From Neophaeotheca triangularis (lineage: Eukaryota), in NCBI GenBank assembly GCA_054600435.1, contig BAAIJX010000025.1:186001-250000 (forward strand): a DNA stretch of 64,000 nucleotides, written 5' to 3'. A model generated the notes under the pieces. The model saw nothing but the letters and a program-made list of their open reading frames with translations, did no database searches and was not told the origin of the DNA. Position 1 is the stretch's first letter. Each line of letters starts with the position of its first letter. The position numbers and the translations under genes are program-made. Below are positions 2,544-53,856 of this stretch, in pieces.

Positions 2544-3584
2544 TTAGAGAGAGTCCAGGTAAAGAAAAGTGTCGCCCACCGTGAACTCGCAAGGCTGATC
2601 ACACTCAAACCCTTTCTCGTCTAGTGTTGGATTGCGCTTACTGGAAGGCCTTGGGGAGGATATGGGAGCTTTCTGTTCGAGAAGTGGTGCCGGAAGGATC
2701 TGGGAAATATCCTGCCCAACCCAGCCAACGAACTTTCCTCCAGTTTTGGTCGCGAATCCACCCTCCACCGCGCACGAACGCATCTTCTTCAGCTCTGGAA
2801 CGTCCAGCTGCTTTAGGTAACTCTCAACGTATTGCCTTCGGCCTCTGCGTTGGCTGTTCATAGCTGCGAGGAGTGCTTCGATGGTCTCGCTCGGAACGTA
2901 GCCAAGACGGTCGGCATCAGGCGGCGAGATGACCTCAACACCGGCCGGCAAATCTAGAGTGAGACCGAGGAGTATGTTCCAGAACCAACGAGTGCGCGAC
3001 TTGACACAAGCCAATACGTCTTGATTCTCGGGAATAGGTCCCAGGCGCGTGCAGACTTGGATTGTACGGAGATTCGGAAGAGCTCGCGATATTGTACGGC
3101 CTATTTCCATCATGGCTTCGTTTTGGTCTTGACCGTTGCCGCGAGAAGAGGTGGTGATGATGAGGTGGAACATCGTCAGCGACTGCAAGATCGGTCCGAA
3201 TTTGGAGAGGGAGGAGACAAGGCGAGTGAGATACCAGTCTTTCCTTGGACGAAGATGGGCGTGGAGAGCTACTCGTTCGTGGCAATGTTTGGTGGTAGTC
3301 TGGTAGACTTGCTTGCACGTGCGGAGTAGGGCATTGTTAGGCATTTCAAGACACTTTGGGTTTGTCGTGGCGTTCACCAGAAGGGGGCGCTTGGGCGTGT
3401 ACAGCCCACCTAGGAGAGCGAACTGGGCAATCCTCAGCTGGAGTTCAACGGGAAGCTCGAGATATCTGAAGGGATTCTTGTTTCCATGCTTCTCGTTTCC
3501 TGTAGATGGTTCACTCGGGCGGGGGTCGACTGAAGTCTGCTTTCGAGGTGAGATTTGAGTCTCCCAGGCACGTCTTGGAGGCAT
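2544..3584 (-). CDS. Hypothetical protein with N-terminal F-box-like motif
   Basis: 346-aa ATG ORF. FRYLELPVELQLRIAQFAL and ALLRTCKQVY are typical of fungal F-box-like orphans. Confidence 0.6.
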   Translation of the reverse strand: MPPRRAWETQISPRKQTSVDPRPSEPSTGNEKHGNKNPFRYLELPVELQLRIAQFALLGGLYTPKRPLLVNATTNPKCLEMPNNALLRTCKQVYQTTTKHCHERVALHAHLRPRKDWYLTRLVSSLSKFGPILQSLTMFHLIITTSSRGNGQDQNEAMMEIGRTISRALPNLRTIQVCTRLGPIPENQDVLACVKSRTRWFWNILLGLTLDLPAGVEVISPPDADRLGYVPSETIEALLAAMNSQRRGRRQYVESYLKQLDVPELKKMRSCAVEGGFATKTGGKFVGWVGQDISQILPAPLLEQKAPISSPRPSSKRNPTLDEKGFECDQPCEFTVGDTFLYLDSL

Positions 3585-3625
3585 CGCGGACTCTTAACCA
3601 GAGGGACTCGACCAGGGATGGAGAG

Positions 3626-4401: not shown

Positions 4402-5535
4402 TCATTTGAGCCCAACCCAACTCAGCCAGCCACTGCTACCCTGCTTTCCAAGGCTCTGACCGTCAACCGAGGCCTCTGAGGGCCGGGACACGCCACCGGC
4501 TTGGATCATTTTTTGACCAGGTTTGAGTTCGATGATGGACGTAGTCCCGAAGTGACGTCTCTTCTCCTTGACTACCTCCAGTCCCGTCCTCGCTGCGGCC
4601 TCATCCACGATATCGCCGATTTCTCGATTGAACCAGCAGCCATGTATCTCGGCATGCTTTTCCGCCGAGCTGTCGAGCGCCCGGTTCAACCAATCGCGTG
4701 AACTACGGCCATGCTCGAGCAATAGAATGCGTGCCTTTGGGTTGGAAGCATCAAGATGGGCAGCGAGATTCACCAGGAGGGCTGCAGGATCAGGGGTCGA
4801 GCAAAGCCCCATGGTCTGGATAATGGTATCATACTTCTTGCCGGCCTTGTCAGCGGGCGCCAATGGCATCGGACCCAGAGCAGAGCCCGTCAGAAAGCGA
4901 ATGCTCAATCCAGGTTTGAAATTGCTCCGGCTAACGTCCGCCTGATGCGCTTTGATCGCATTCCCATGCAGCGCGTCCCATTTCTTCTTGCACAGCTCCA
5001 CCATGGTCGGGCTCAAATCGACAAACGTCAAACTGTCTACGTCGGCTCCTTTGCTGATGTCGTAGTAGCCCAAGTTCCTACCAGTCCCACAACTCGCTTC
5101 CAGGACATGGCCGCTACACTGCTTGGCTAATTTTTTGCGGATGCCGTTAATGCCCATGAGGAATTCCGAAAATCCAACTTCGCTATCAAAGTTGTCGGCT
5201 ATCTCTTCGTAGCGGGAGGAGACATCCTTTTGACGGTCGAGTTTTGCGACATCAGGATTATTGCAGGGTTGATTGAGCGCCTGGAAGATTCGCACGAGGT
5301 AGAAACTCATCCCCCCGGCGAACAGGGACGCTACGATCCATGGGAAAGCTCGACCTCCGTGCGGAGCCCATTTTGGGAGGCCATGTTCCTCTTTTGGACC
5401 GACTTTCGGGTCGGTCGGTTTATTTTGTAGTGGACTTTGAGATTGGACGAATGGTTGGCGGAAAGTCGCTTCTCTCGGGCGAGTCTTTGGGATGACCCTG
5501 GCGACGCTTCTCCCTGTAGTTTTGGCTCGTGACAT
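4402..5535 (-). CDS. OMS1: Mitochondrial SAM-dependent methyltransferase OMS1-like
   Basis: Basic N-terminus and one TM segment, then VLEASCGTGRN (SAM motif I), YDTIIQTMGLCS, LLLEHGRS and HGCWFNR. Confidence 0.8.
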   Translation of the reverse strand: MSRAKTTGRSVARVIPKTRPREATFRQPFVQSQSPLQNKPTDPKVGPKEEHGLPKWAPHGGRAFPWIVASLFAGGMSFYLVRIFQALNQPCNNPDVAKLDRQKDVSSRYEEIADNFDSEVGFSEFLMGINGIRKKLAKQCSGHVLEASCGTGRNLGYYDISKGADVDSLTFVDLSPTMVELCKKKWDALHGNAIKAHQADVSRSNFKPGLSIRFLTGSALGPMPLAPADKAGKKYDTIIQTMGLCSTPDPAALLVNLAAHLDASNPKARILLLEHGRSSRDWLNRALDSSAEKHAEIHGCWFNREIGDIVDEAAARTGLEVVKEKRRHFGTTSIIELKPGQKMIQAGGVSRPSEASVDGQSLGKQGSSGWLSWVGLK

Positions 5536-5947
5536 GAGCTGGCTACGAGCAAGAGCAGCGCTTGTTTCAGGACACGAGGTTGCAGTCGATGGTTTCTAGA
5601 GAGAAATGAACGGCAAAAGAAGGGATGAAGTCGGAGCTGTCCGCAAGTCGATGCGGCCTCGGCGACCCCAGACGACGAAACCTTGCTCAGCGATTTCTTG
5701 GCCAAGGTACTGTACCATATTGCGCGCGCCCTTTGCTGAACATGTTCATCGCACTATATCCAAGCGAAGGCGGATCGCTTGTCAATCTGCAATACAAATA
5801 CGTAGGTGTACGTTCCATCTCCCTGCTCCTTCTTCGTGCATTTTCTCACTGGACTTCCATTGGCTTCAACAGCCCAAGGAAACACATACAAAGCCTACAT
5901 CTTAGCGGACGGACATTGTACATACAAGCAAGAAAGAGCATACAATC

Positions 5948-7351
5948 ATGGCCACCCAAACACCCTCCTCGATCCTCATCCTAGGCTCCGGCGTCTTCGG
6001 CCTCTCAACCGCGCATAGTCTGGCAACCCGCCCCGAGTACGCCAACAGCCAAATCACCCTACTCGACCGCTCAACAATCCCAGCCCCAGATGCGGCAAGC
6101 GTAGACAGCAGCCGCATCATTCGTGCTGACTACGCCGACTATGCTTACGCCTCCCTCATGACCGAGGCCGCCAAACACTGGCGCGGCGAGTTCGGCGCCG
6201 AGGGACGTTACGACGAGTCGGGCTTGTGCATCACCATCGAGGACGCCGGTGGGGATGAGGGAGGAGGTAGGGCGTACATGCGTAAATCGCTGGAAAATGT
6301 GCGTCGGCTTGGGCTGAAGGTCGGAGGGGTGGAGGAGGGGAGGAGAAAGGATGGGAGCGCCCAAGTCAGCGTACTGGACGGGCAGGAGGATGTCCGGAGC
6401 GCTTTACCGGGGTGGAGAGGCATTGGCGGTAGCAGGGGGTATGTGAACTGGACGTCCGGGTGGGCGGACGCGGAAGCCGGAATGAAGCACATGCGGCGCA
6501 AAGTGGAAGCGACAGGGCGAGTGGACTTCCGGCGCGCAGAAGTCGCCCGCCTAATCTACGCCACCGACCGCGTCGAAGCCGTCGAGCTCACTTCGGGCGA
6601 GCGCCTAACCGCCGACCTCATCGTCCTCGCCACCGGCGCCTGGACCCCCAAATTCCTCGACATGCGCGGCATAGCCTCAACCACCGGCCAGGTCCTCTGC
6701 TACACCGACATCACCGACACCGAACAGGCCCAACTCCGCCAAAACCCCGTCCTACTAAACGAAAGCACAGGCATGTTCATCATCCCGCCCGCGCACAACG
6801 TCCTCAAAGTCGCCCGCCACGGCTACGGCTACGCCAACCCAACCAAAATCCCGCACCCGGAAAACCCCGGTGGAGAAGAAATCACAGTCTCGCTCCCCTG
6901 GACCCACCTCGACGACCCGGCCCTCGCGATCCCCGTCGAAGGCGACCGCGCCTGCCGCGCCTTTTTGCAAACCTGCATAGCCTCGGACCCCGCCTTGCAG
7001 GACCTGGCGACGCGCCCCTGGTCCCACACGCGCATTTGCTACTACTCCGATACGCCCTCGGGAGACTGGGTCGTCTCTTATCACCCGCGGTACCGGAATT
7101 TGTTCGTCACGGCGGGCGGCTCGGGGCACGCGTACAAGTTTTTGCCCGTGGTTGGGGAGAGGATTGTCGACGTTATGAGGGGCGAGGCGAGGGATGGGTT
7201 GGGGAGGACGCTGGAGGACAAGTGGCGCTGGCCGGAAGCGAGGGTGCGGGAGGATCATATTTGGACTGGGGATTGGAGGGGTGGGCGGAAGTACATGGTT
7301 TTGAAGGAAGAGTTGGCGAGGGGAAGACGCGATGGTGAGGCGAAGATGTGA
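5948..7351 (+). CDS. FAD-dependent oxidase, sarcosine/pipecolate/fructosyl-amino-acid oxidase family, probably peroxisomal
   Basis: ILILGSGVFGLSTA (GxGxxG), ASVDSSRIIRADY, RICYYSDTP (covalent-FAD Cys region), GGSGHAYKFLPVVG, and C-terminal AKM (PTS1 variant). Confidence 0.88.
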   Translation: MATQTPSSILILGSGVFGLSTAHSLATRPEYANSQITLLDRSTIPAPDAASVDSSRIIRADYADYAYASLMTEAAKHWRGEFGAEGRYDESGLCITIEDAGGDEGGGRAYMRKSLENVRRLGLKVGGVEEGRRKDGSAQVSVLDGQEDVRSALPGWRGIGGSRGYVNWTSGWADAEAGMKHMRRKVEATGRVDFRRAEVARLIYATDRVEAVELTSGERLTADLIVLATGAWTPKFLDMRGIASTTGQVLCYTDITDTEQAQLRQNPVLLNESTGMFIIPPAHNVLKVARHGYGYANPTKIPHPENPGGEEITVSLPWTHLDDPALAIPVEGDRACRAFLQTCIASDPALQDLATRPWSHTRICYYSDTPSGDWVVSYHPRYRNLFVTAGGSGHAYKFLPVVGERIVDVMRGEARDGLGRTLEDKWRWPEARVREDHIWTGDWRGGRKYMVLKEELARGRRDGEAKM

Positions 7352-9334: not shown

Positions 9335-9774
9335 GATTTGTCGCGGTGAGTTAGGTATGGTCGGTCGAGAGGGAGAGGTTTGTTTGTGTTAGGTTCGGGG
9401 TCGACGCGTTGTCAAAAGACGGTCGTCAGTCGATGGTGTGGCAGGGCAACAAGGAACAAAGTCGCAAAGGCAGCAGCTACCTTGACCTTGGACGGAGGAC
9501 AGGGCGAAAAAAGGCTGGCAGGGCTAAGCTGCAGCTACAGTATATTCAACTATGTTGACGGTCAGACAAGAATGCTGGCACAAGAAGAATTGAACGGGCG
9601 TGGTCCAAGGGATTGGTCGGTCGGTCGGCGACGTTGCGACCTTGCATATGCTGGCTGCAGAACCAAGGCAAGGTGAGAGAAAGGCGAGGACGAATGGTGG
9701 TGGGGCGGTATGATGTGTGATGTGTGATGTGTCGTCGTCGGTCGGTGTCGTGGCGAAAAGAAGGGGAGAATGGT

Positions 9775-9906
9775 GGTTGTTGTTGTTGTTGTTGTTGCTA
9801 TTGTCGTCGTCGTCGTCGTCGCCTCCTGTCGTCGAGTGGTGTTTGTGTGTTTGAGGTGTGGGTAGGCGTCAGCGTCGTGTAAGGTAAGGTAAGGTAAGGT
9901 AAGGTA
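9775..9906. repeat. Compound microsatellites (GTT)n, (GTC)n, (GTAAG)n
   Basis: Directly visible upstream of the GDS1-like gene. Confidence 0.9.
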
Positions 9907-10211
9907 ATAGTAAGAAGTAGTGGGAATTATTATTGATTGCCCTCAGGAGACGGGAGGCGGCGGGCACTACCAGCACCGGCGGCCGCTGGCTAGGATCTCT
10001 ACTAGTAGGTGGTCTCGGTGGTGAGTCTGACGGGACCGTTTGCTGCAGCCTGCGTCAGTCTTGGCCCCACGCCATTTTATTATTCTTTCCAACCTTATAC
10101 GTGACGTACTACCTTTTATTATCACATTATTCAATACCTTATTATTCGCGTTTGATTTTCTAGCGGCTTTGCAGTAGTGCCTTGCCGTCGGATGAAAACC
10201 CCCGCTGCACG

Positions 10212-10279
10212 CTACTACTACTACTACCTACTATTACTACTACTATTATTACTACTACTACTACTACTACTACTACTAT
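10212..10279. repeat. Imperfect (CTA/TTA)n trinucleotide microsatellite
   Basis: Directly visible: ctactactac...tattattactactacta... Confidence 0.9.
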
Positions 10280-11000
10280 GTCTCTGGCTGTTGCAGCATT
10301 TCTCGGCAGCATCAACTAACTCTTCATTCCTACTGTCGTCTTGCAGCGGCATTGGAATGTAATGCCACCTCTTGCCAAGCATCGTGAGTCGACTCTCCAC
10401 GACATATACGCTCCTTTATAGAGGAAAGACCAGTCTTTCGAAGCAGGATTACGTCCCCTCCACCAAAGACCAAAGACAAGGCATCTCCCATCTACTTGTA
10501 ACACCACGGCAATACGTGCACGGTATGTATCAACAGAAAGCCGTCTTGTCAACCCTGCACATCCTCATGGCCTCAGAGCGAATATCGCGCAATTCGCCGC
10601 CGCCATCAGACTACCAATTGGCTGAGGACACGTAAAGGGGCATCGCCGCCATTCGAGAAGAATAGGTAGGGTCTGAAAGCTGTCAATCGAGTTTCCTCTT
10701 TGTCTCGGGTAGTGGTCATTGAGCCTCAAACAGCCGACTCGTCAAAGCGACTGAAAGCGGTCTTTGATGAAAACGGAAAGCCAGCAGTCTTTGGGCGCCC
10801 AAGCCAGCAGTCTATTGATGCACCCAACCTTTGAAAACCATGATATACTCTCTCGAGTTCCAAGATCATCCTCACCTTCCTATTATCCGCATACCCGTAG
10901 TATCATTAATATCACCGTCCCCCAAGGACTCTCAGCAATTCCACATCCTTCACCCCTATCACCCCTTAATCCAAAAAAGACAAGCCCCAAAAGCCCAATC

Positions 11001-12929
11001 ATGCGTCTTTCCGTAGCGCTCGTCTGCGCTGCAGCGACGTTTGTGGCCTCGATCGAGGCCGCACCCCCTGGCTACGGCCCAGGAGCCGACCTCCAAGCCG
11101 GCTGGGAAGAAGAACACGGCGGCCCAGCCCCCGACTATGACTTTGAAGAAGACAACGGCAACATGCTCATGGCTCGCGGCGTCAAGCACGGCCACAACAT
11201 GCCCAAGCCCGCTCACAAGCACCACGCCGCTCGCGACGAGGACAGCGAAACGTACCAAATGCGTCGCCGTGACGCTCTGGCCACTGGCGCCGAGGACCCG
11301 ACCGATCCCACCGAAGCCGTCCCCGGTAACCTCGGAATCCCCAAAGCCACCGACTTGACCCAGGCGCTGAAGGATCTCTACGACCGCTTCATCGGCAGCG
11401 ACGTCGTTGACGAGACGGCCAAAATGCTGCGCCGCAGCACCGACGACTCGGTCTACCACTACGACGACGAGGCCGAACTCGCCGACTCCACCGGGGACGA
11501 AATCACTCAAGCCCAGCGCGAGGCCCAGGGCCCGGAAGTCGACGAGGAAATCGACCCCGCTCTCGTCGAGGCTATCGGTCTAGATGACTCCGCTACCGAG
11601 GACCTCACGCGCCGCGATCTGGAAGACGACTTTGGCCGCGATGAGGACGATTTCGACGAGGTCATGGGCGCCTTTGACGACAACGAGCATGAGGAGCACG
11701 AGAAGCGCGGGCTCGAGCACGAGTATGGCCAAGATTTTCACGATGAGGATGACGAGGAACTTCCCGGTGAGGAGGATGAGGGAGACATGGGCGAATTTAC
11801 CGATGAGGAGCACGCTGAGCATGAGAAGCGTGGTATCGAAGCTACCGAGGAGGAAATGGAGGCATATGGCGCTTTTGATCAAGACATCGCTGAGAACGAG
11901 AAGCGTGGTCTTGATGCTACCGAGGATGAGATGAGCGCTTACGCTGAGGAAGAGGCTGACGACGACGGCGATGACGAAATGGGCGGCTTTACCGCCGAAG
12001 AAGATGCCCAGGTCGAGGAGCTCGCGAGGCGTTCGCTCGATGCCGATCTGGCTTGGGCTCAGAGCGACGCTTCCGACGAAGAGTTGGAAGGGCTAGAGGA
12101 AATGGGAGTTCTCGACGACGACGAGCACGCTGAGCACGAGAAGCGTGGGCTGGAGGGCGAGCACGGCCAGGATCTCCACGACGATGACGAGTTCCCGGGC
12201 GAAGAGGACGACGGCGAGATGGGCGACCTGGAGGACGAAGAGCACCGCGAGCACGAAAAGCGTGGGCTTGCCGAAGAATTTGGTAACAGCGATGACGAAG
12301 ACGACGACGATGACGACGAGCTCCCCGGCGAGGAAGACGATGGCGAAATGGGCGAGCTCACTGACGAAGAGCACGTCGAACATGAGAAGCGCGGGCTCGA
12401 GGGTGAGCACGGCCAGGACTTCCACGACGACGACGACGAGCTTCCCGGTGAGGAAGACGACGAGTCCGAAATGGGCGAGTTCACCGCTGAAGAGCACGCC
12501 GAGCACGAGAAGCGCGGGCTTAACGAAGACTTCGCTTTCGCCATGAGCGACGAAGCCGATGAAGAGGAAGCGGACGCTTTTGCTGGGAAGCCCAAGATGG
12601 CCAAACGCGGTCTCGCCGAAGATGTTGCTTTCGCCATGAGCGATGCTGCTGACGAAGAGGAGGAAGACGCCTATGCCTCCTCGCCCAAGATGGCCAAACG
12701 CGGTCTCAACGAGGATCTAGCTTTCGCCATGAGCGACGCCGCCGACGAAGAGGAGGAAGAGGTCTACGCTTCTTCTGAGAAAATGGCCAAACGCGATCTC
12801 GACGAGGATCTTGCATTCGCCATGAGCGACGCCGCCGACGAGGAAGACGAGGACAGCTTGCTGGAGGAAGTGGTGACGAAAGTCGTCAAAACGATAGCGG
12901 CGAGGGGCACGCCGTCTGGGTTTACGTGA
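11001..12929 (+). CDS. Secreted Kex2-processed repeat protein (KEP-like polypeptide precursor), very acidic, 642 aa
   Basis: ATG in CAATC context, signal peptide MRLSVALVCAAATFVASIEA, then 10 KR and several RR sites separating homologous D/E-rich repeats. Intronless. Confidence 0.85.
   Translation: MRLSVALVCAAATFVASIEAAPPGYGPGADLQAGWEEEHGGPAPDYDFEEDNGNMLMARGVKHGHNMPKPAHKHHAARDEDSETYQMRRRDALATGAEDPTDPTEAVPGNLGIPKATDLTQALKDLYDRFIGSDVVDETAKMLRRSTDDSVYHYDDEAELADSTGDEITQAQREAQGPEVDEEIDPALVEAIGLDDSATEDLTRRDLEDDFGRDEDDFDEVMGAFDDNEHEEHEKRGLEHEYGQDFHDEDDEELPGEEDEGDMGEFTDEEHAEHEKRGIEATEEEMEAYGAFDQDIAENEKRGLDATEDEMSAYAEEEADDDGDDEMGGFTAEEDAQVEELARRSLDADLAWAQSDASDEELEGLEEMGVLDDDEHAEHEKRGLEGEHGQDLHDDDEFPGEEDDGEMGDLEDEEHREHEKRGLAEEFGNSDDEDDDDDDELPGEEDDGEMGELTDEEHVEHEKRGLEGEHGQDFHDDDDELPGEEDDESEMGEFTAEEHAEHEKRGLNEDFAFAMSDEADEEEADAFAGKPKMAKRGLAEDVAFAMSDAADEEEEDAYASSPKMAKRGLNEDLAFAMSDAADEEEEEVYASSEKMAKRDLDEDLAFAMSDAADEEDEDSLLEEVVTKVVKTIAARGTPSGFT
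12516..12850 (+). repeat. 93-bp (31-aa) coding tandem repeat, 3 full copies plus 1 partial
   Basis: KR codons fall at 12510, 12603, 12696 and 12789, an exact 93-nt period. Unit GLxED(F/V/L)AFAMSDxADEEExxxxAxxxKMAKR. Confidence 0.9.
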
Positions 12930-13483
12930 GTCCTTCCAACCGGCCCTGCCTTCTCTCCTTGCTTGATCCGTCTGGTTGAAAACCCCTTCTCCGGGATATT
13001 GCGTTGACGCTGACGCTGACAGCTGAAAGCTTCAGACACCGGCCGTCGACCGCCAGACCTGCGTTTCCCACTGGCGCTGAGCTGGATGAGGTGGAGCCCG
13101 CGAGCACGGCGCATAAGACTCCTTCGCCTACGGGATGGTTCAAGTTTCCATGGTAGTTCTGGGCAGGGTGGTAGACGCGGGAGACTGACTGGCAGCCTTT
13201 CCTTTCATGATGGTTTCTCTTTTCCCTTTTCCTTCCAACTTTCCGTTACGTATCTCGCATTTATGTATCAATGAATGAAAGTCTTTCGAGTTCTTGAGGA
13301 AATCAAAAGTACTGTCGATCGATTACAAAGCTGTTGTAAGGTATATTACGCTTTTAGACTCGCACTTTACACGGCTGCGATTCCAACAAAAATCAACGCT
13401 ACAAATGCACTACACAGCCCAAAAGAGCATCTGCCCACGGTCCGACTTCTTCATAGTGATGCAAGCCGCTCAATCGTCTGCTC

Positions 13484-14638
13484 CTACTTCAGGGGTTTTC
13501 TCGCGACCATCAAATACATGGGCGTGAACAGCTTCTCCTTTCCACCAGCGACAAGGCAATCAGCGGCCTTTGCCAGCGAGTCGGCCGTCTTCTGCGTACC
13601 CTTGGGAGCCAGGCCGATCGTCTCCAGAGCTCCCACAAAGCGGTGCACGGTGCCACGCCCGATCTTCGTCATCCTCACCAAAGTCGGCAAGTCCCACACG
13701 CTCTGCATGTACCTCAGGTCTCCGCTCAAAGGCCAGTACCACGGGAGCTCGTCACCACGGTCCGCGAGATCCTCACTGACTTCGAGAGTGAAACCGGCGG
13801 CCTTCATGGCAGCGACGCCGGTGGAGATCTTCTCCATGTTGGAGATGCCATCGCCTTGCTCGATACCCAAGCGGATCTCGCGGTGGTGGGGGTTGTCGTT
13901 GTCGTAGGCGTCCGTCATGAGCCATTCGTAGACACCAAAGACGCCGCCAGGCTTAAGCACGCGGTAGATTTCTGAGTAAATGCCTTCAAGGCTTGGAGCG
14001 TGGACAGTGGCTTCGATGGCGTAGACGGCATCGAAGGAGTTGTCAGGGAAAGACATTTGCATGAAGTCGCCCTTTGTGTAGGAGAGCTTGTGCGCCAATC
14101 CCTCCTTTTGCGCGTAATGAGTGGCTCTCTCGATCTGGTAGTCATTGTTGTTCAGGCCGACGACGTTGCAGTCTGTGAATTTTACAATCTCCCGGGCTGG
14201 TCCACCAACACCGCAGCCGACGTCGAGCACGCGCTGGTTCGCCTTGATGCCCATCTGCAGGGCGAGGTAATGTTCATGTCTTGCGAGAGCCTGGCGGAAG
14301 GGCTCGTTCTGGCTGAAGCGGGAGAAGTGGAAGGATTGGCCCCAGCCGTACTCGTACAGGTCGGTCGCGAGGTTGTAGTAGTGTCTGGTCAGGGTAGCGT
14401 ACTCGTTGCGGCGGGCTTCGCGAATGGCGTCGGTCTCGTCGGCCGAGGCTTGGTTGTCCCAGTGCTTGAAGTACTCGTCGACGGCAGCCTTTTGCGACTT
14501 GTGGTCCTTTTGCATCATGGCCAGGAAGGAGTTGCGCTCCTCAGCGGTCTTGCCGTGCAGGGCGGCCTTGAATGCAGCATCGCGTTCACGGTCTTCCTTC
14601 TCAAGAGCAGTCGGGGCACGGGGTGGGGGGGCGACCAT
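13484..14638 (-). CDS. ERG6: Sterol 24-C-methyltransferase
   Basis: YYNLATDLYEYGWGQSFHF, VLDVGCGVGGPAREI, YAIEATVHAP and KLFTPMYLMVARKP. Intronless. Confidence 0.97.
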   Translation of the reverse strand: MVAPPPRAPTALEKEDRERDAAFKAALHGKTAEERNSFLAMMQKDHKSQKAAVDEYFKHWDNQASADETDAIREARRNEYATLTRHYYNLATDLYEYGWGQSFHFSRFSQNEPFRQALARHEHYLALQMGIKANQRVLDVGCGVGGPAREIVKFTDCNVVGLNNNDYQIERATHYAQKEGLAHKLSYTKGDFMQMSFPDNSFDAVYAIEATVHAPSLEGIYSEIYRVLKPGGVFGVYEWLMTDAYDNDNPHHREIRLGIEQGDGISNMEKISTGVAAMKAAGFTLEVSEDLADRGDELPWYWPLSGDLRYMQSVWDLPTLVRMTKIGRGTVHRFVGALETIGLAPKGTQKTADSLAKAADCLVAGGKEKLFTPMYLMVARKPLK

Positions 14639-31508: not shown

Positions 31509-33254
31509 TTAACATATCCCCCCGAACTTCATCGCTGGACCTGCTCTCCCCGCTGTCATCGTCACGGTCGCTAAGCGGCAATGGTGGTGTGATGATTGCC
31601 ACCGGTGGCGAGAGGGCGCTGGGGTTTTCGTCGTGGTGGGCGGAGGAGCCGGTCGGTATGCGAGCGCGATGGTTGCTGGGAAGGCGGCGTGTTGGGAGCG
31701 GGATTCTGGAGCGCGGCGGTTGGGGGGTTCGGGGGAGTGGGTTCCTATGGTGGAGGGGGGAGGGGGGGGGTTTGACGCGTTTGAGGTTGTGGAGGCGGGG
31801 GAGCTGGGAAATTGCCCAGGCATGGAGCTGTGGGAGGCAGGGGGCAGTTGGGGGTTGAGGTTTGAGGTAGGCTGAGTTGTTGTAGGCGGCGAGGGACTGG
31901 CGGGTACTTCTAAATGGTTCTGGGATATGCGTGTATTGCTTGCCATTGCCGTGGAAGGAGTGTCGTGCGAAGAGGTGTTGTCTGCTCCAGATGGCAGCGT
32001 TTGGTGTTCGATTCGACCATCACGGAGTAGATCAATCAGTCGACCCACCAGCTGTATCAATCTCGCTTCTTTGCGAGTAGCTACGACTAGTTCGGACAGC
32101 TCGGCCTGCTGTCCATCACGTCCTTCCTCAACTCTGGGAACAGCAGCTGGGACATCGGCAGAAGGCCCCGAGCCTGCAGGAAGCATATCCGAACGTCGAA
32201 CCAGCTGCTCGCTCACGCCCTGAGCCCCTGCCACACAAGTGCCGCCATCGAAAAGTCGACAAAACTCCGGAAACTCCGTCCTCAAAAGCGACTCCACGTC
32301 CACGCCCGGCCTGGGCAACGCTCCCCCAGCAGACCCAGCAGGCTCGAGAGACTCGCCCGTCGGTTCGCTGGCCTTATCAACAGCCGTCACATTTCCAAAC
32401 CCAAAAGCCTGCTCCAGCAGCGGATCCCGAGGCCGCGCAGACTCCAGCTCTCTCAAGGGCACAACTCTCCCGCTCCCAGCGGGAATCCGCGTGGCCGTGA
32501 AAGGCGGACCCCGAGGCGGCGCGAGATGGAGGATCCTCTTGGGCGCAACTCTTCCGCTCCCGGCCGGAATGCGTGTGGACGTCCAGGGGTTTAAGTCCCC
32601 ATCTTCCGCGCCAAACTCGCTCCGACGGCGAAGGGGTCTGGGAGCCGGTTGCCAGAGTTTCGGGGCCGCTTCTACCGCGGGTGCTAGGGATAGGAGCGGT
32701 AGTGGCGTCCAGGGGACTTCTTGTGCTGTTGAGGGCGTCCCGGAGAGAGGCGGGATCGGCGAGATAGGGCCAGCGGCACCGGGAGCCGGTCTCAGGACAG
32801 GGGTACGAGTTGGTTCGTTCCTTTCTGTCGATGCGGCGACTTGCTCGCCCAGCTCCCGAGTTTGGTCCTCCACTCGGCTGCTCCTAGCCCCTGACCAGTC
32901 GTGAGACCTGGTCTCCCATATTGGGAGACGGTGAAGCTCGTTAAGCTCTTCTTCTTCATCTTCTTCATCGTCGGCTTCGTTGCCGGAGTCGTTGTGATTT
33001 GCAACTCCCGCGACGAGGGGCTTTTCCTCGCCATGCTCTGAGGAGCCAAGTCTATCTTGGCTAGAATAGGTAATTTGATCGGTTGATAGAGTTCGAGAAG
33101 TGAAGTCCGTAGAGGGGTTCTGAAGTGTTGTGTCGTTGATTTGATTGTCCTGCGACGGATGGGAGCGTGATATTGCTTCCAAGTTATGGAAGGGGGTTTG
33201 CTTGTTGCTAGTTGGAGGCTTGCCGTCAGTGCTGGAGTCCTTGGGAGCGGACAT
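31509..33254 (-). CDS. Orphan, largely disordered Pro/Ser-rich protein (581 aa)
   Basis: Long ATG ORF in CAACA-ATG context with an acidic patch, an internal TRIPAGSGRV duplication and an SMPGQFP motif. No recognisable domain. Confidence 0.5.
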   Translation of the reverse strand: MSAPKDSSTDGKPPTSNKQTPFHNLEAISRSHPSQDNQINDTTLQNPSTDFTSRTLSTDQITYSSQDRLGSSEHGEEKPLVAGVANHNDSGNEADDEEDEEEELNELHRLPIWETRSHDWSGARSSRVEDQTRELGEQVAASTERNEPTRTPVLRPAPGAAGPISPIPPLSGTPSTAQEVPWTPLPLLSLAPAVEAAPKLWQPAPRPLRRRSEFGAEDGDLNPWTSTRIPAGSGRVAPKRILHLAPPRGPPFTATRIPAGSGRVVPLRELESARPRDPLLEQAFGFGNVTAVDKASEPTGESLEPAGSAGGALPRPGVDVESLLRTEFPEFCRLFDGGTCVAGAQGVSEQLVRRSDMLPAGSGPSADVPAAVPRVEEGRDGQQAELSELVVATRKEARLIQLVGRLIDLLRDGRIEHQTLPSGADNTSSHDTPSTAMASNTRISQNHLEVPASPSPPTTTQPTSNLNPQLPPASHSSMPGQFPSSPASTTSNASNPPPPPSTIGTHSPEPPNRRAPESRSQHAAFPATIALAYRPAPPPTTTKTPAPSRHRWQSSHHHCRLATVTMTAGRAGPAMKFGGIC

Positions 33255-34491
33255 TGTTGCTTTGCTTGATATCGATTGAAGCCGAGGAATGTGAATCGAA
33301 AGAGATCAGGTAATGTTACAGTATGGTATCGAGTACTCCGATTGTAATCTGGGGTTTCCAGTATCCGATCGTAAATATAAAGCCCAAGAGCACGGGAGTA
33401 CTTTTTGGGTTAGAGGAAGAGAGAAAGAAGAGCCCCGTTCGCCCAAGGGGCTTCTCTATATGCGATAGGCTCAGAGATCGAGTTGTGACGGGTCGTATAA
33501 GACATTGTCGTCAATAAGGATACTAGACACAAGATCTACCCTCGTGTATAGTCAGGAGACGTTGCTGTAAAGACGTAGTAATCTACGTAGAAAGAGAGTA
33601 CGAAAGCAAACTAAGTAATACAAGTGATGTACAAGAGTGGATAAGGAAGTAATAGGCACGTGAATTATAGGCAATGGACATATAGATATCTAATATTTCC
33701 TCTATAGAGCAGTCAATAACAAGTAGGAAGGGAGGCACGTACCTTTTACAACTCGAGCAACATGGTTACTCTCTACCGATTGCCTACCTGCATTTCACCT
33801 CACGTGAATGTCCTCTGTCGATCAAGGCATGACCGGACAAGGCAGGGCAAGGGCGACAGCAAGGCAAGCCAACAGAAGCAGATAATTTTCTGATCATATG
33901 GCATACGGTGCACTACCTAGGCCAATGATCGTATTTTCTCGTCAACGATGTCTGCATCTTCGCAAGCCTCTCCCTAGCTAGCCCTCTCGGGCAGCCATTG
34001 GTCGACGAATGCATAGTGCCCACCAAGACGTCAAATGATGATAGCTCGCGCCTCTCGTCTCTCGTGATGATGCTTGCAACACCCCGTCTAAGTTGCTTCT
34101 TTTGCTTGTTGCCAGTCTTTGTGCTTCATGGGGCACAAGCACACCCCCAGAGCATAGAAAGCCCCCAGTACACAGGGCTGTCAAACCCCCGAACGCCTCG
34201 CCATGCTATGCTGGAAAGCCAATAAAGGTATGATTTGAAGAGATTTCGCTTGATCAAGCGGCCATGAAGACCGGATTGAAAGGGGAGAGAACTACCCTCG
34301 TCCGTGGACGAAGGAGCCTCGAGCCCAAAAAGTGCTAGCCGGCTCAGCAATCGCCAAGGCGGCATTAGGCCTCAGTGTGATTGCCCCATTTGGCTGCATC
34401 TAAGCCGAACAATGTTAGTACAACGATGCCGATTTGATCCGCTTCGCACACCCCAACTGCCATCACTCCCGCGTCTCGACTATTGAATGTT

Positions 34492-42257: not shown

Positions 42258-43250
42258 TTACAAACTTCCTTCCTTATGTCACCTTCTCTCGTGGCTCAAG
42301 GTCTCGATACCTTGTCAGCCTCTGAAGAGCGCACACACTAAGAGAGAACCCAACAAGATCCCCAAAACCATTCTCAACCTCGTACAGCAGCACCAAGTAC
42401 CGACGAAACTTTGCGAGCATCACCTAAACATTCTATCAAGCGGGAGTCCAATTCGTAGCCCGGCTCAAGGCAATGGCACGCTACGAGGGTTTGCCCCAGC
42501 AATCGTCACCACCGTTAGCAGGGCGAGGAGCGTCTGTACGTTTGTCGACTTCTACCACTGAGGTGCGGAAACATGGGACCTCCTCGTCATCGAGGTCTAG
42601 CTACAACATCGGCGACCGCGGTCAACTCTTTTTTTCAGGCGTGTTTTTATACGCGGGTCTGGGCTGTTCACATGGTTCATGCTATGCGGGCAAGAGCGTA
42701 AGCTCAGGTTGTACTAAAGAGCGGTCTGGGTCGGTTATCTGAGGCGGTCTCTCTGCAAAGGGATCGACTGCCATGGGGCCTGAAGCTTGAGCGTTCTTGT
42801 ACATTAAAATCGTGGCGAGAAACTTCTTAATATCAAATTGTTGTTACGATTCGGATCTTGCGCTCGAAAAGGTGTTCCGAATGTGGTTCAGAATTAATGA
42901 CAGGAGGATGCGATGTGTTGAACTACCCCTGGCTCCCCTTAGAGGCGCCTGGTTTGAATGCACTCACACGTGACGGTCCCCACTTCTCGCTCTCCTCAAT
43001 TTAACATGGACCGCTTCTCACAGTTCCTACTGTCCCTCGGCGATGATCCAAAGCCTTAGGAGACATGGCAGGTGGATCACGGAGTAAGTTAATTGTATCT
43101 CGTTTGGTCCAATAAATCTCAATTCTACGAAAAGATGAGTCGTGCCACCTGTTGCGTTCGTTCGTCAAGATCCGCTCGCTGCCTGAAGTCCGTCCGAACT
43201 TCATCTCCCTAGGACCTTCACCACACAACACCGCGACCCAAATACCCAAA

Positions 43251-44291
43251 ATGTCAAGCCGAGCCATCAAAAAGCCGCCGAAACCCAAGCCCTCGTTCAA
43301 AAGCAGCGGCAAAGAAGACATCCCCCTCCCTTTCCAAAAAGCGCCTCGGACACTCGCAGCCTTCCTCGACCGCCTCGACCCTTCCAAAGTCTACATAACC
43401 CACATCGACCGCTTCCCAATCGAAGCCAAGAAACAAGTCTACGCCGTCCCCGTCATCCTCAACACCGCCATCGCTCTCCTCCTAGCATGGCGCCTCTACG
43501 CCGCTCTCCCCCTCTACTGGACCCTCCTGGAAACGGTGCTGGGGTACTCAACAGCCGCGCGCATGGACACGGCGGACGCGTCGCGCAGCGAGCAGCTCAA
43601 CGTCCTGTTCCGGCGGTTCGCCATGTTCGCGATTGATTTCGTGCTCGTCCGCTTCGTCGGGCCGTGGCCGCTCACTTTCTTCCTCGAGCAGCCCGCCAAC
43701 CCGGTGTTGTGGAGGTGGAAACTGGGGTTCCGGGGCCGCGAGGTGGTGGCCAGAGTGAGTCGGGGTTGGGGCACGGAGGAGCTGATGCAGGGGGTTAAGA
43801 GGGGGGAGGAGAATGCTTTTTTCAAGACGCGCGTTTTGCCTGCGATTGAGAAGGGGTTTATGCAGAAGACGGGGTATTTGATGATGGATAAGAGTTGGGA
43901 TTTGGATTTTGAGCTGATGTTGGATGCGCATACGTTGGCGGAGAGGCAGGCGGTCAGGTTTGAGGATGTGGATGGGGTGGTTTTGGCGCATGTGGAGGGG
44001 ACTGGGTGGGCTGTGTGGCAGTGGGAGGGTCCGAGTGATGCTGTGGAGACTCGGAGGAGGAAGATTGTGGATTTCAAGGAGGCGTTGACGGCGGCTGGGA
44101 AGGAGAGCTTGTTTTGGAAGTGGACTGAGATTGTCGAGGAGGAGAGGCAGGCTGATGGTGGTTTTAGCCCGGAACAACAGGAGAAGGTGGTTGAGAGGGT
44201 GCAGGCGGAGTTTGAGAGGGAGGGTGTTGACTTCAATAAGATTGCTGAGAGTATAGGTGGGTTGGAGGACATGCCGGCGAAGAAGGAGTGA
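43251..44291 (+). CDS. Conserved fungal hypothetical membrane protein (about 2 TM segments)
   Basis: 346-aa ORF with CAAA-ATG and strong codon bias. VYITHIDRFP, a TM segment, GYLMMDKSWDLDF and GKESLFWKW. Confidence 0.7.
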   Translation: MSSRAIKKPPKPKPSFKSSGKEDIPLPFQKAPRTLAAFLDRLDPSKVYITHIDRFPIEAKKQVYAVPVILNTAIALLLAWRLYAALPLYWTLLETVLGYSTAARMDTADASRSEQLNVLFRRFAMFAIDFVLVRFVGPWPLTFFLEQPANPVLWRWKLGFRGREVVARVSRGWGTEELMQGVKRGEENAFFKTRVLPAIEKGFMQKTGYLMMDKSWDLDFELMLDAHTLAERQAVRFEDVDGVVLAHVEGTGWAVWQWEGPSDAVETRRRKIVDFKEALTAAGKESLFWKWTEIVEEERQADGGFSPEQQEKVVERVQAEFEREGVDFNKIAESIGGLEDMPAKKE

Positions 44292-52467: not shown

Positions 52468-53856
52468 TCAGACACTCATTGGTGGACACAACAGGCTAGG
52501 CTCGCGTAGCAGGTCAGTCTTCTCCATCGCCTCTGGAGTGGCTAGAGTCAAGCCCTCTCCCAACCGTTGCAGGTCGGCGTCGGCGTCGACTGCGAGTTGA
52601 GTGCTATTGGACTGTAACGTATCGTAGAGCGAGCCGTATGCTTTGGGATCTCCTTTGCCCTTTAGAAGATGGAGCGCCCAGATTGCCATGTAGTATTTCG
52701 AGTAGGCCGCCTGGATGTTCTTCTCGGCGTGCCTGTCCTTTACGTTTGCATCTTTTGACCAGAACGATTCCGCGAACTCCAGGAACGGAGCTGTCTCGGG
52801 CCTGGTAGGATGAAACAGCTTCAGCCCGACTGTCCCATACTGCGCCCACGGTTGCTTCTCCTCCCGCCCTTCAACCCACGTATGCATAAACCTGTCGTAA
52901 CGCGCTGGGTCCGTTCGAGCATACACGTCGTGGAATCGAGTCAGTTGGGCTTTCAGCACCATCCTTGCCAGTCCCAAATGATCAGTCTGAGTGTTTCGAC
53001 CATCAACATTGACGCCGGATGGGGCAGCCTTTAGAAGCTCCCTAGCCTTGAAGTAGATGTCCAATGCTGTATCGGCGGACCTCTTAGATCGCTGGGCCGG
53101 ATCATCCAGGCCCGCAAAGACGAGGTAGCGCACGAGGTAGGATTTCCAGCGGAGCCCAAAGTTGTGTGCATCTGCCCATCCATCAGGGCGAAAATCTATG
53201 TCATTCGATATAGCATCGTTTGTTTTCAACCACTCCCAAACCCATTTCTCAGCCCCTTCTCGGTATAACAGCTGGACCAGGCATGCTATGAACAACCTGT
53301 TGCATACAAACTCGACTGAATGATGCCACTTGCTGTTCCATAGCCAGTTGAGGGTTCGCAAACCAGCCTTGCGATCGCGGATTAGCTCCTGCTGAGCTTC
53401 AAGGTTTAGACTTCGCAGCTTCTCAAAGTAAACCTTGAGACAAGCCTCTGCTACTTCGACGGTGGCAAGTCCTCTACGTTCATAGTCCTCCAGCAGCTCA
53501 ATGGGGTCTTCGTTTGGTCTGCTGTACAGTTTACGCAAAACAGCTGAGGGCGCTGGGGCACGTCTGCTCGATTGTCTGGCCAAGAGCGGGCTTGTGAGAA
53601 CAGAAGCCAAATGCTTATCAGCATACGCCGCGGACGAGTGCAGACTCTGGATGCTGCTTTGAGAAGGTGATTCCGAGGTTTCCTTCTTTGGTCTCGTGTT
53701 TGCCTGGGCCGGTGTAGGGTGGACTTGGTCCAGATGCCTTCTGAAGGAACTTGTGAGTGCCGTGAGCAATCGCTGGGATTCGATCCTTGTCAATGGAAGC
53801 TGGGGATGAATCTTGGACACCCATGACTTGAACGAGTTTGCCGTCGATCCCTTCAT
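52468..53856 (-). CDS. Conserved fungal hypothetical protein, probably mitochondrial
   Basis: Start at the first ATG (MKGSTANSFKSWVSKIHPQLPLTRIESQRLLTALTSSFRRHLD), with HLASVLTSPLL. Basic N-terminus and helical body. Confidence 0.65.
   Translation of the reverse strand: MKGSTANSFKSWVSKIHPQLPLTRIESQRLLTALTSSFRRHLDQVHPTPAQANTRPKKETSESPSQSSIQSLHSSAAYADKHLASVLTSPLLARQSSRRAPAPSAVLRKLYSRPNEDPIELLEDYERRGLATVEVAEACLKVYFEKLRSLNLEAQQELIRDRKAGLRTLNWLWNSKWHHSVEFVCNRLFIACLVQLLYREGAEKWVWEWLKTNDAISNDIDFRPDGWADAHNFGLRWKSYLVRYLVFAGLDDPAQRSKRSADTALDIYFKARELLKAAPSGVNVDGRNTQTDHLGLARMVLKAQLTRFHDVYARTDPARYDRFMHTWVEGREEKQPWAQYGTVGLKLFHPTRPETAPFLEFAESFWSKDANVKDRHAEKNIQAAYSKYYMAIWALHLLKGKGDPKAYGSLYDTLQSNSTQLAVDADADLQRLGEGLTLATPEAMEKTDLLREPSLLCPPMSV

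What the first reader, a model, noticed from the sequence alone, without database searches (positions are those of the whole stretch)
11001..12929. Stand-alone secreted Kex2-repeat precursor encoding a library of hyper-acidic peptides
Seen: a signal peptide followed by 10 KR sites (codons at 11703, 11826, 11901, 12141, 12258, 12387, 12510, 12603, 12696, 12789) plus RR/RRR sites. These cut the protein into about 25-45-aa D/E-rich peptides that mostly begin GL/GI/DL/SL. There is no Cys after the signal peptide. Established: signal peptide plus KR-delimited repeats is the architecture of fungal KEX2-processed repeat proteins (alpha-factor, Ustilago Rep1 repellents, Candida Ece1/candidalysin, dikaritin precursors such as UstA). 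This one has no DUF3328/UstY, tyrosinase or transporter next to it (flanks are GDS1-like and ERG6), and its peptides are polyanionic, not hydrophobic or cationic. Inference: possibly an undescribed class of linear secreted peptides acting in cation chelation, salt/desiccation protection, mineral interaction or neutralisation of cationic antimicrobials.
Basis: partly seen in the sequence, partly recalled or inferred. Interest (0 to 1): 0.85.

Follow-up and report, generated by a model that had tools for sequence, protein, structure and literature searches.

The report
Acidic Kex2-repeat peptide precursor, black fungus
This is a real, intronless fungal gene for a probably secreted protein built like the known Kex2-cut repeat-peptide precursors, unusual in that its roughly eleven predicted peptides are extremely acidic and histidine-bearing; their function is untested.

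Summary
Window 11001-12929 (+) is an uninterrupted 642-codon ORF with an N-terminal signal-peptide-like segment.

The gene is real. GC3 jumps from 0.42 to 0.77 at the ATG. The ORF carries no indel in two other samples. One orthologue (58% identity) keeps the leader, the N-domain and 3 of 4 alignable KR sites in the repeat array.

The repeats are old. Synonymous codons between copies are randomised (82 of 174 differ, 82.8 expected), yet the copies stay 76% identical in protein, against 33% for shuffled units. So selection acts on the peptide sequences.

[quoted passage not shown] That class already holds 7878 members, 2560 of them without homologues and 78% without a DUF3328 neighbour. I therefore file it as a new, narrowly distributed member of a known kind, in a Mycosphaerellales-like dothideomycete. 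It is not a new class.

What is unusual is the charge (-7 to -23 per peptide) and a conserved EHxEHEKR|GL boundary motif. Secretion, cleavage, expression and function (most likely cation or metal binding) remain untested.

The parts
11001..12929 (+). Whole coding sequence, 642 codons plus stop, with no intron needed
   Evidence: Open frame. GC3 is 0.77/0.68 inside, against 0.42 in the in-frame upstream extension and 0.74-0.76 in ERG6 and eIF3c. No indels in runs X2 and X3. Orthologue P0003 starts at the same Met.
11001..11060 (+). Signal-peptide-like leader, residues 1-20 (MR, then 16 uncharged residues, then SIEA|AP)
   Evidence: It is the only hydrophobic segment: Kyte-Doolittle 19-residue mean is 1.94 at residue 3, and the next best beyond residue 30 is 0.52. 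17 of 20 residues are identical in P0003. SignalP was not run.
11061..11615 (+). Conserved N-terminal (pro-)domain, residues 21-205, with His cluster HKHH and RRR88-90, RR144, RR204
   Evidence: 111 of 182 aligned residues are identical to P0003. RR88-90 and RR144 are not dibasic in P0003, while RR204 is. No Pfam or PDB sequence match. AlphaFold2 pLDDT is mostly below 50.
11616..11708 (+). Degenerate acidic unit, residues 206-236, ending MGAF..EHEEHEKR
   Evidence: Net charge -15. Its KR is KH in P0003.
11709..11831 (+). Type A unit 1, residues 237-277 (GLEHEYGQDFH...MGEFTDEEHAEHEKR)
   Evidence: Net charge -20 with 4 His. Orthologous unit and KR are kept in P0003.
11832..12032 (+). Two type C units, residues 278-302 (ends NEKR) and 303-344 (ends LARR)
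   Evidence: G[LI].ATE.EM.AY starts. KR301 is kept in P0003, which has this unit type at least twice.
12033..12146 (+). Unit of residues 345-382 (SLDADLAWAQ...MGVLDDDEHAEHEKR)
   Evidence: Net charge -15. KR381 is kept in P0003.
12147..12515 (+). Type A units 2-4 in tandem, residues 383-421, 422-464 and 465-505, each ending EH.EHEKR
   Evidence: TRF period 123 nt. Net charge -18 to -23. Between type A copies 82 of 174 same-residue codon pairs differ (82.8 expected if random), at 76% protein identity.
12516..12794 (+). Type B units 1-3 in tandem, 31 aa each, residues 506-598 (GLNEDFAFAMSD..EEE..A.A...KMAKR)
   Evidence: TRF period 93 nt. Net charge -7 to -9. 25 of 65 same-residue codon pairs differ (34.8 expected), at 77% identity against 25% for shuffled units.
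12795..12929 (+). C-terminal piece, residues 599-642: a fourth type B start followed by a unique tail (SLLEEVVTKVVKTIAARGTPSGFT) and the stop
   Evidence: It is the only segment with an appreciable helical hydrophobic moment, 0.45. There is no HDEL/KDEL ending and no hydrophobic tail.

Best explanation
The gene encodes a lineage-restricted Kex2-processed repeat protein (KEP) of a Mycosphaerellales-like dothideomycete 'black fungus'.

Proposed route, all of it inferred:
1. The 20-residue leader takes the protein into the ER.
2. A conserved N-terminal domain of about 185 aa with a His cluster travels as a pro-region.
3. In the late Golgi, Kex2 cuts after each KR/RR at the unit boundaries, and Kex1 trims the basic residues.
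4. The cell releases about eleven linear, unmodified, disordered, polyanionic peptides of 23-44 aa. There are four His-bearing type A peptides (net -18 to -23), three to four type B peptides (net -7 to -10), and type C and other units.

Shown here: the anatomy, that the gene is real, and purifying selection on the peptide sequences.

Inferred: secretion, cleavage and function. I think the most likely function is extracellular binding of divalent cations or metals (Ca, Zn, Cu), or of cationic molecules, through the Asp/Glu runs and the conserved EHxEHE and HGQDFH histidines.
For: Anatomy and KR statistics.

Cleavage-site context: every dibasic site is followed by G/D/S and then L/I/A/T, with acidic residues just downstream. 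Sites that Kex2 actually cleaves are enriched for negative or small residues at P1', P2' and P4' (PMC2515848, passages).

The gene is real. GC3 steps from 0.42 to 0.77 at the ATG, and codon use matches ERG6 and eIF3c. Contigs of run X2 cover the stretch in one piece with 7 differences and 0 gaps. X3 covers it in overlapping pieces with 0 gaps. Of 28 listed X3 differences in the CDS, 11 are synonymous, 17 are non-synonymous and none is a stop. The one that touches a site turns KR into RR.

Selection on the peptides: type A copies have randomised synonymous codons (82 of 174 differ, 82.8 expected) but 76% protein identity, against 33% (maximum 40%) for shuffled units. Type B shows 25 of 65 (34.8 expected) and 77% against 25%.

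Orthologue P0003 (E 2e-90) keeps the leader (17 of 20 residues), the N-domain (111 of 182), two copies of the MGxF..EHAEHEK[RH] boundary motif (against six in P0001), and KR at 3 of 4 alignable array sites. It also ends in KR.

There is no second hydrophobic segment, no ER-retention ending and no N-glycosylation sequon. The AlphaFold2 model has low confidence throughout (mean pLDDT 47, pTM 0.18), as expected for a disordered protein. The protein meets both published KEP criteria sets.
Against: No signal-peptide predictor was available, so the leader rests on a hydropathy heuristic. In P0003 an Arg interrupts the hydrophobic core.

I have no evidence of expression, secretion or cleavage.

3 of 7 alignable dibasic sites are not dibasic in P0003 (RRR88-90, RR144, KR235 to KH). 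At least those sites are dispensable, and the N-domain is probably not cut into peptides.

The within-species differences are only mildly biased towards synonymous changes (11 against 17).

The family has two members in all, so conservation rests on one comparison.

The metal or cation function rests on composition alone. His is 25 of 642 residues, a modest enrichment. A scan of the 1.6-kb upstream region for recalled metal, pH and stress motifs showed no enrichment.
Confidence: 0.55

Rival explanations
1. A secreted or cell-wall-associated polyanionic disordered protein that acts largely intact, for example as a hydrated, cation-binding matrix component. Under this reading the dibasic sites are cut only partly or not at all.
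For: The composition and the low-confidence structure model fit a disordered polyanion. Some dibasic sites are dispensable in the orthologue. Bader et al. report structural constraints that stop Kex2 cutting some predicted sites (PMC2515848 abstract). In Candida Sce1, cleavage is not needed for secretion (PMC10989805 passages).
Against: Dibasic pairs lie exactly at the boundaries of three unrelated unit types, always with the favoured G/D/S-L context. 19 of 26 Arg are in dibasic motifs (my count). P0003 ends in KR. A disordered chain gives Kex2 free access.
Confidence: 0.2
2. A luminal helper of the secretory pathway, acting as a low-affinity, high-capacity Ca2+ buffer or a granin-like aggregating protein whose dibasic sites are processed as a by-product. 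The comparison with animal granins and calsequestrin is recalled from memory, not drawn from any call.
For: 35% Asp+Glu, a leader and dibasic sites.
Against: There is no HDEL/KDEL or other retention ending and no membrane anchor. A housekeeping helper would be expected to be widespread, yet only one relative exists among 1.84 billion cluster representatives.
Confidence: 0.08
3. Not a secretory protein. The N-terminal hydrophobic stretch would be a mitochondrial or other targeting signal, or translation would start at the upstream in-frame ATG (10767). The product would then be an intracellular acidic protein and the KR sites would have no role.
For: SignalP was not run. P0003 has two Arg in its first 9 residues. 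An in-frame ATG exists at 10767.
Against: GC3 of the upstream extension is 0.42 against 0.77 downstream. The 16 uncharged residues (Kyte-Doolittle 2.19 over 15 residues) and the small residues before the AP/IE junction fit a cleaved signal peptide. Even with the upstream start, the stretch would act as a signal anchor and place the acidic part in the lumen.
Confidence: 0.07
4. A precursor of modified peptides (dikaritin or ustiloxin-type RiPP), with short cores hidden inside the acidic units.
For: Ustiloxin-type precursors share the architecture of a signal peptide plus KR-separated repeats (PMC7329392). A methyltransferase and an FAD oxidoreductase lie 4-7 kb upstream.
Against: No DUF3328 hit appeared in any ORF scanned: 16 ORFs in 1-26 kb and 18 ORFs of 200 aa or more in 26-64 kb. 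The units are 25-44 aa, against typically 8-14 aa in ustiloxin, phomopsin and asperipin precursors (PMC7329392 Discussion passage). Tyr is not at a fixed core position in the units. The neighbours are housekeeping genes.
Confidence: 0.03

Closest known systems
Kex2-processed repeat proteins (KEPs) as defined by Le Marquer et al. 2019 (PMC6339444) and Umemura 2020 (PMC7329392)
   Same: It has a leader, at least 3 repeats separated by KR/RR, and repeats covering more than 15% of the length. It stands alone without a DUF3328 neighbour, as do 78% of catalogued KEPs, and it has almost no homologues, like the 2560 'stand-alone' KEPs.
   Different: Peptide net charge is -7 to -23. There is a conserved EHxEHEKR|GL boundary motif, three unit types in one precursor, and a large conserved N-domain of about 185 aa. 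None of the three KEP texts searched uses the word 'acidic'.
Ustilago maydis Rep1 repellent precursor (652 aa, 12 repeats of 34-55 aa, cut by Kex2 into peptides of 35-53 aa; review PMC4617103, passages)
   Same: Total size (642 against 652 aa), number of units and peptide length class are nearly the same. The peptides are linear and unmodified, and the gene is not in a cluster.
   Different: [quoted passage not shown] The units here have a low helical hydrophobic moment (0.19-0.29) and are polyanionic. Sequence similarity to Rep1 could not be tested because no Rep1 sequence was available.
Yeast prepro-alpha-factor (MFalpha1) and ascomycete alpha-type pheromone precursors
   Same: The layout is pre-pro-polyprotein with a leader, a pro-region and KR-bounded repeats. 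Acidic residues follow the KR. An Atlas feature search on the orthologue listed a 'Pheromone 1' cluster at rank 3, but at score 0.76, which counts only as a lead.
   Different: There is no MF_alpha or MF_alpha_N Pfam match at E up to 1. There are no XA/XP Ste13 spacers after the KR. The peptides are 23-44 aa, against 9-24 aa (PMC6339444 passage).
Ustiloxin/phomopsin/asperipin (dikaritin) precursors such as UstA
   Same: Signal peptide plus KR-separated repeats.
   Different: No DUF3328 gene was found in the window. The units are much longer, and there is no fixed Tyr-containing core.
Anionic antimicrobial peptides of animals (dermcidin, surfactant-associated poly-Asp peptides, enkelytin; review PMC3210996, section 1.3 passages)
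   Same: They are Asp/Glu-rich peptides of 5-70 aa released by proteolysis from larger precursors, and many need Zn2+ as a cofactor.
   Different: Most carry only -1 to -7 net charge. There is no sequence relation, and no activity has been tested here. This is an analogy for function only.

Membership tests
KEP (Le Marquer 2019 / Umemura 2020 operational class) | N-terminal signal peptide (defined by SignalP in both screens) | tested here: met
   Heuristic only: MR, then 16 uncharged residues (Kyte-Doolittle 2.19 over 15 residues), then small residues at -1/-3 (VAS|IE or IEA|AP). It is the only hydrophobic segment and is conserved in P0003. SignalP itself was not available, so this rests on a weaker test than the definition asks for.
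KEP (Le Marquer 2019) | At least 3 similar fragments between KR/RR/KK sites, with the repeated motifs covering at least 15% of protein length | tested here: met
   Four type A units (39-43 aa) and three to four type B units (31 aa). Type A alone is about 164 of 642 residues, or 26%. Criteria taken from passages.
KEP (Umemura 2020) | At least 3 tandem repeats of at least 8 aa each between KR, KK, RK or RR, none longer than 100 aa | tested here: met
   A2-A3-A4 are tandem (383-505) and B1-B2-B3 are tandem (506-598), each 31-43 aa. Criteria from Methods section 13.
KEP | Actual cleavage by Kex2 and release of peptides | not testable with these tools
   Only the site context could be checked. All 14 sites have G/D/S at P1' and L/I/A/T at P2', which is the favoured context according to PMC2515848.
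Ustiloxin-type RiPP precursors (ust-RiPS / dikaritins) | A gene for a DUF3328 (UstY) protein close to the precursor gene | tested here: not met
   No DUF3328 hit in the Pfam scans of 3 + 13 + 18 ORFs across the 64-kb window. The 10 kb on each side is filled by GDS1, ERG6, an RRM protein, zuotin, a methyltransferase and a DAO oxidoreductase. ORFs shorter than 120 aa (1-26 kb) or 200 aa (26-64 kb) were not scanned.
Alpha-factor type pheromone precursors | MF_alpha / MF_alpha_N domains, or XA/XP Ste13 spacers after the KR | tested here: not met
   The only Pfam hit at E up to 1 is a sub-threshold FR47 match. KR is followed by GL, GI or DL, never by XA or XP dipeptide runs.
Rep1-type repellents | Amphipathic peptides of 35-53 aa | tested here: not met
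   The lengths fit, but the maximum 18-residue helical hydrophobic moment of the units is 0.19-0.29 (Eisenberg scale values recalled from memory). This is a weak test, and sequence comparison was not possible.
Anionic antimicrobial peptides (functional class) | Asp/Glu-rich peptides of 5-70 aa with antimicrobial activity, often dependent on Zn2+ | not testable with these tools
   Composition and length fit (class description). Activity is unknown.

The most novel reading that the evidence does not exclude
The gene founds a family of polyanionic, histidine-bearing linear peptides that extremotolerant, rock- and air-borne black fungi release by the Kex2 route. The peptides would act outside the cell as metal or cation binders, for example as a peptide metallophore, a mineral-surface agent, a Zn-dependent anionic antimicrobial, or a decoy for cationic antimicrobials. 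No such function has been assigned to any KEP in the papers I searched.
Probability: 0.2. Interest if true: 0.65.

Novelty: new member of a known kind. Interest (0 to 1): 0.38.

Why it matters
KEPs are widespread, but their functions are 'largely unknown', and knockouts of six Coprinopsis KEPs gave no phenotype (PMC9769878 abstract and passages). This precursor offers an unusually clear biochemical handle. Its peptides have extreme negative charge and conserved histidines, and their sequences (not just their composition) have been held by selection across old duplications. That makes a function in cation or metal binding directly testable with synthetic peptides. The gene is also an example of a fast-evolving, lineage-restricted secreted gene in a poorly sampled group of stress-tolerant fungi. 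If the peptides prove inert, it is one more orphan KEP.

Tried and rejected
**Homology.** phmmer against 1.84 billion cluster representatives found only the protein itself and P0003. The word-indexed search of 5.8 billion proteins gave the same two at near lengths and nothing among shorter proteins. 'Longer' lengths were not searched with that tool, though one search has no length limit. Pfam gave no family, and a profile search against PDB sequences gave 0 hits at E up to 1.

**Structure.** The AlphaFold2 model was too poor (pLDDT 47) to justify a fold search, so none was run.

**ESM Atlas.** The window's protein is not held. The orthologue's best feature scores were 0.75-0.78 and its structure TM scores were 0.27 or lower, so these are leads only.

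**Expression.** No RNA holder was listed for the stretch, so expression could not be examined. Runs X4 and X6 hold only 151-nt contigs over parts of 11481-12242 and were not interpreted.

**Genome-wide checks.** No whole genome is held. I could not look for Kex2, for paralogues, or for synteny in relatives.

**Cluster members.** The look-up of P0002 and P0003 could not be made.

**Promoter scan.** I scanned 9400-11000 for PacC, CreA, STRE, CDRE, ZafA, Zap1, CuRE, Yap1, GATA, CCAAT, AbaA, BrlA and StuA consensus motifs, all recalled from memory. Counts were close to the window-wide density (for example ZafA-like 5 against 1.9, AbaA-like 4 against 1.2), with no usable signal.

**Published catalogues.** Umemura's Table S2 lists accessions only. 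Motif strings were absent from the four Le Marquer supplements. I cannot say whether similar acidic KEPs are already listed.

**Literature.** A search for KEX2 together with anionic, polyanionic or acidic-peptide terms returned no fungal paper that joins them.

**Repeat dN/dS.** Nei-Gojobori values of 0.07-0.14 between repeats were set aside, because two-fold codons inflate pS. The codon-identity count replaces them.

**Antisense ORFs.** The ORFs over the repeats (for example 12059-12637, Ser-rich) are by-products of GAN codon runs and were rejected as genes.

**Earlier findings of this scan.** Nothing at this place or by sequence. The word search returned only prokaryotic cases.
Full report
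**1. What is there**

Window 11001-12929 (+) translates without interruption into 642 residues. RR or RRR lies at residues 88-90, 144, 204 and 343.

The protein is 35% Asp+Glu with a calculated pI of 4.05. It has 25 His and a single Cys, at residue 9 inside the leader. Shuffling the mature sequence 20000 times gives a mean of 0.93 KR and never more than 6, against 10 observed. Repeat copies are not independent.

**2. The gene is real and starts at 11001**

An in-frame ATG at 10767 could extend the ORF. However, third-position GC is 0.42 in that extension, against 0.77 in the first 235 codons and 0.74-0.76 in the neighbouring ERG6 and eIF3c genes. Codon choice for Asp, Glu, Arg, Gly and Ala also follows those genes.

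Contigs of two other public DNA runs carry the stretch without any insertion or deletion. X2 holds it in one 3686-nt contig with 7 differences. X3, labelled as the same organism as the probable source, holds it in overlapping pieces. Of 28 listed X3 differences inside the CDS, 11 are synonymous, 17 are non-synonymous and none creates a stop. The only one at a cleavage site changes KR420 to RR, so the site stays dibasic. That ratio indicates only mild constraint within the species.

**3. Anatomy**

- **Residues 1-20** look like a cleaved signal peptide: MR, then 16 uncharged residues, then VAS|IEA|AP. This is the only hydrophobic segment of the protein (Kyte-Doolittle 19-residue mean 1.94; next best beyond residue 30 is 0.52). 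There is no ER-retention ending, no hydrophobic tail and no N-glycosylation sequon. SignalP could not be run, so secretion is an inference.
- **Residues 21-205** form a moderately acidic domain with a His cluster (HGHNMPKPAHKHH).
- **From residue 206 onward** the chain is a string of acidic units bounded by dibasic pairs:
  - one degenerate unit (206-236);
  - four type A units of 39-43 aa (GLEGEHGQDFHDDDDELPGEEDD..MGEFT.EEHAEHEKR), net charge -18 to -23, 2-4 His each;
  - two type C units (G[LI].ATE.EM.AY...);
  - one further unit (345-382);
  - three type B units of 31 aa (GLNEDFAFAMSDAADEEEEDAYASSPKMAKR), net charge -7 to -9;
  - a C-terminal piece that starts like type B and ends in a unique tail.
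- A module MGx[FL] appears seven times in this protein. Six of those copies are followed by EHxEHEKR before the cut site. In the seventh (MGGF, residue 327) the unit ends in LARR instead.

**4. Selection on the peptides**

The copies are old. Among type A units, 82 of 174 aligned codon pairs that encode the same residue use different codons. Full randomisation of synonymous choice predicts 82.8. Despite this, the units are 76% identical in protein, against 33% (maximum 40%) when residues are shuffled within units. Type B is nearly as diverged (25 of 65 against 34.8 expected) at 77% identity, against 25% shuffled.

Recent duplication or gene conversion would have homogenised the synonymous sites as well. 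The similarity is therefore maintained by selection on the amino-acid sequence, not merely on acidic composition. The old, diverged DNA copies also fit the absence of length variation between samples.

**5. Relatives**

An exhaustive phmmer search of 1.84 billion cluster representatives found only the protein itself and one other, P0003 (495 aa, E 2e-90). The word-indexed searches agree.

P0003 shares the leader (17 of 20 residues) and the N-domain (111 of 182). It has the first type A unit, repeated type C units, and the MGxF..EHAEHEK[RH] boundary motif. It is less acidic (25.5% Asp+Glu), lacks the type A and type B expansions, and ends in ...NQKR.

In the reliably aligned part (residues 1-382) there are 8 dibasic sites. 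Four are dibasic in P0003 (204, 276, 301, 381), three are not (88-90, 144, and 235 where KR becomes KH), and one falls in a gap. The sites in the repeat array are thus mostly kept, while the two inside the N-domain are not. This suggests the N-domain is a pro-region rather than a source of peptides.

No Pfam family, no PDB sequence relative and no confident fold was found. AlphaFold2 gave mean pLDDT 47 and pTM 0.18, with isolated helices and coil.

**6. Organism and neighbourhood**

The adjacent ERG6 is at most 84-86% identical to any database protein. Its nearest named relatives are from Hortaea werneckii, Meristemomyces, Acrodontium, Oleoguttula, Cercospora, Baudoinia and similar dothideomycetes. 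The host is therefore a Mycosphaerellales or Teratosphaeriaceae-like fungus with no closely related annotated genome. This partly explains the lack of relatives. Even so, the many annotated proteomes of that order have no detectable homologue, so the gene is young or fast-evolving.

The neighbours are housekeeping genes: RabGAP, seipin, a methyltransferase, a DAO-type oxidoreductase, GDS1, ERG6, an STL11/RRM protein, zuotin, a Usp protein, GPHR and eIF3c. No DUF3328 hit was found in any of the 34 ORFs scanned across the window.

**7. How it most likely works**

The architecture is that of a pre-pro-polyprotein. Kex2 cleaves after KR or RR. According to Bader et al., sites actually cut are enriched for negative or small residues at P1', P2' and P4' (PMC2515848, abstract and passages). 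That is precisely the context found here (KR|G-L-E/N/A-E/G/D...). A disordered chain should leave the sites accessible.

I therefore think the protein enters the ER, is cut in the late Golgi, and is trimmed by Kex1. It would leave the cell as about eleven linear polyanionic peptides, plus the N-domain. I put this at 0.55.

The function is inferred from composition and conservation. The features are long Asp/Glu runs, conserved His pairs at the unit ends (EHxEHE) and starts (HGQDFH), and a conserved His cluster in the N-domain. These point to binding of divalent cations or metals, or of cationic molecules.

Animal anionic antimicrobial peptides give a precedent. They are Asp/Glu-rich, 5-70 aa, often Zn-dependent, and are released from larger precursors (PMC3210996, section 1.3 passages).

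The units are not amphipathic (hydrophobic moment 0.19-0.29), so a Rep1-like surface-active role is less likely.

The rivals are an intact secreted polyanion (0.2), a luminal Ca buffer or granin-like helper (0.08), a non-secretory protein (0.07) and a RiPP precursor (0.03).

**8. Comparison with what is known**

The protein meets the written criteria of both KEP screens:
- Le Marquer et al.: a signal peptide, at least 3 repeats between KR/RR/KK, and repeats covering at least 15% of the length (PMC6339444 passages).
- Umemura: at least 3 tandem repeats of 8-100 aa between dibasic sites (PMC7329392 Methods section 13).

Umemura reports 7878 KEPs. Of these, 2560 have no homologue and only 22% have a DUF3328 neighbour (abstract). 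'Stand-alone' and 'unclustered' are therefore normal for the class.

In size and layout the closest described protein is Ustilago Rep1 (652 aa, 12 repeats, peptides of 35-53 aa; PMC4617103 passages), but its peptides are amphipathic. Membership of the alpha-factor and dikaritin families fails on the features tested.

**9. Novelty and verdict**

This is a new, narrowly distributed member of a known kind. Three things are unusual: the extreme negative charge, the conserved His-containing boundary motif, and the clear evidence that old repeat copies are held by selection on the peptide sequence.

The word 'acidic' does not occur in the main text of the three KEP papers searched. A full-text search joining KEX2 with anionic, polyanionic or acidic-peptide terms found no fungal case. 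The published catalogue gives accessions without sequences, so I cannot claim that no comparable KEP is already listed.

Secretion, cleavage, expression and function are all untested. No RNA run was listed for the stretch, so expression could not be examined. Interest is moderate at 0.38. It would rise if the peptides prove to be extracellular metal binders or anionic antimicrobials of stress-tolerant black fungi.

Noticed in passing
window 12036-12248 and 12882-12998 (run X3): In the second isolate of the same labelled organism, two alternative contigs of about equal depth (52.9/49.1 and 63.8/64.1, against about 92-99 for the single contigs beside them) cover the same stretch and differ at 11 and 2-3 positions. 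This looks like two alleles or two gene copies in that isolate, that is, heterozygosity, diploidy or a duplication. The window's own sequence matches one of them more closely.
   Followed up: partly
window 4402-5595 (-) and 5906-7351 (+): A divergently oriented pair of a Methyltransf_23-type methyltransferase and a DAO-type FAD oxidoreductase lies 4-7 kb upstream of the acidic gene. Nothing links the pair to it, and I did not check whether it forms a small metabolic unit.
   Followed up: no
window 55206-58286 (+), 31509-33305 (-), 52468-53955 (-), 43116-44291 (+), 2544-3593 (-): Several long stop-to-stop ORFs (1026, 598, 495, 391 and 349 aa) have no Pfam family, at E up to 1e-5 for the first four and at E up to 0.001 for 2544-3593. 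They may be further lineage-restricted or disordered proteins of this fungus, or some may be antisense artefacts.
   Followed up: no
window 11580-12716 (-): The strand opposite the acidic repeats carries open frames of up to 207 codons (Ser-rich or Leu/Val-rich). These are the expected mirror of GAN-codon runs, not genes, but an automatic gene caller could pick them up.
   Followed up: yes
window 11481-12242 (runs X4 and X6): Runs labelled with two other organisms hold 151-nt contigs that are 95-99% identical to parts of the gene, at very low depth (2-6). Most likely the fungus, or a close relative, is present as a minor component of those samples. I drew no conclusion from this.
   Followed up: no
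window 13484-14638 (-): The ERG6 orthologue is at most 84-86% identical to any protein in the 5.8-billion-protein collection apart from the window's own copy. The host therefore belongs to a dothideomycete lineage with no closely related annotated genome.
   Followed up: partly
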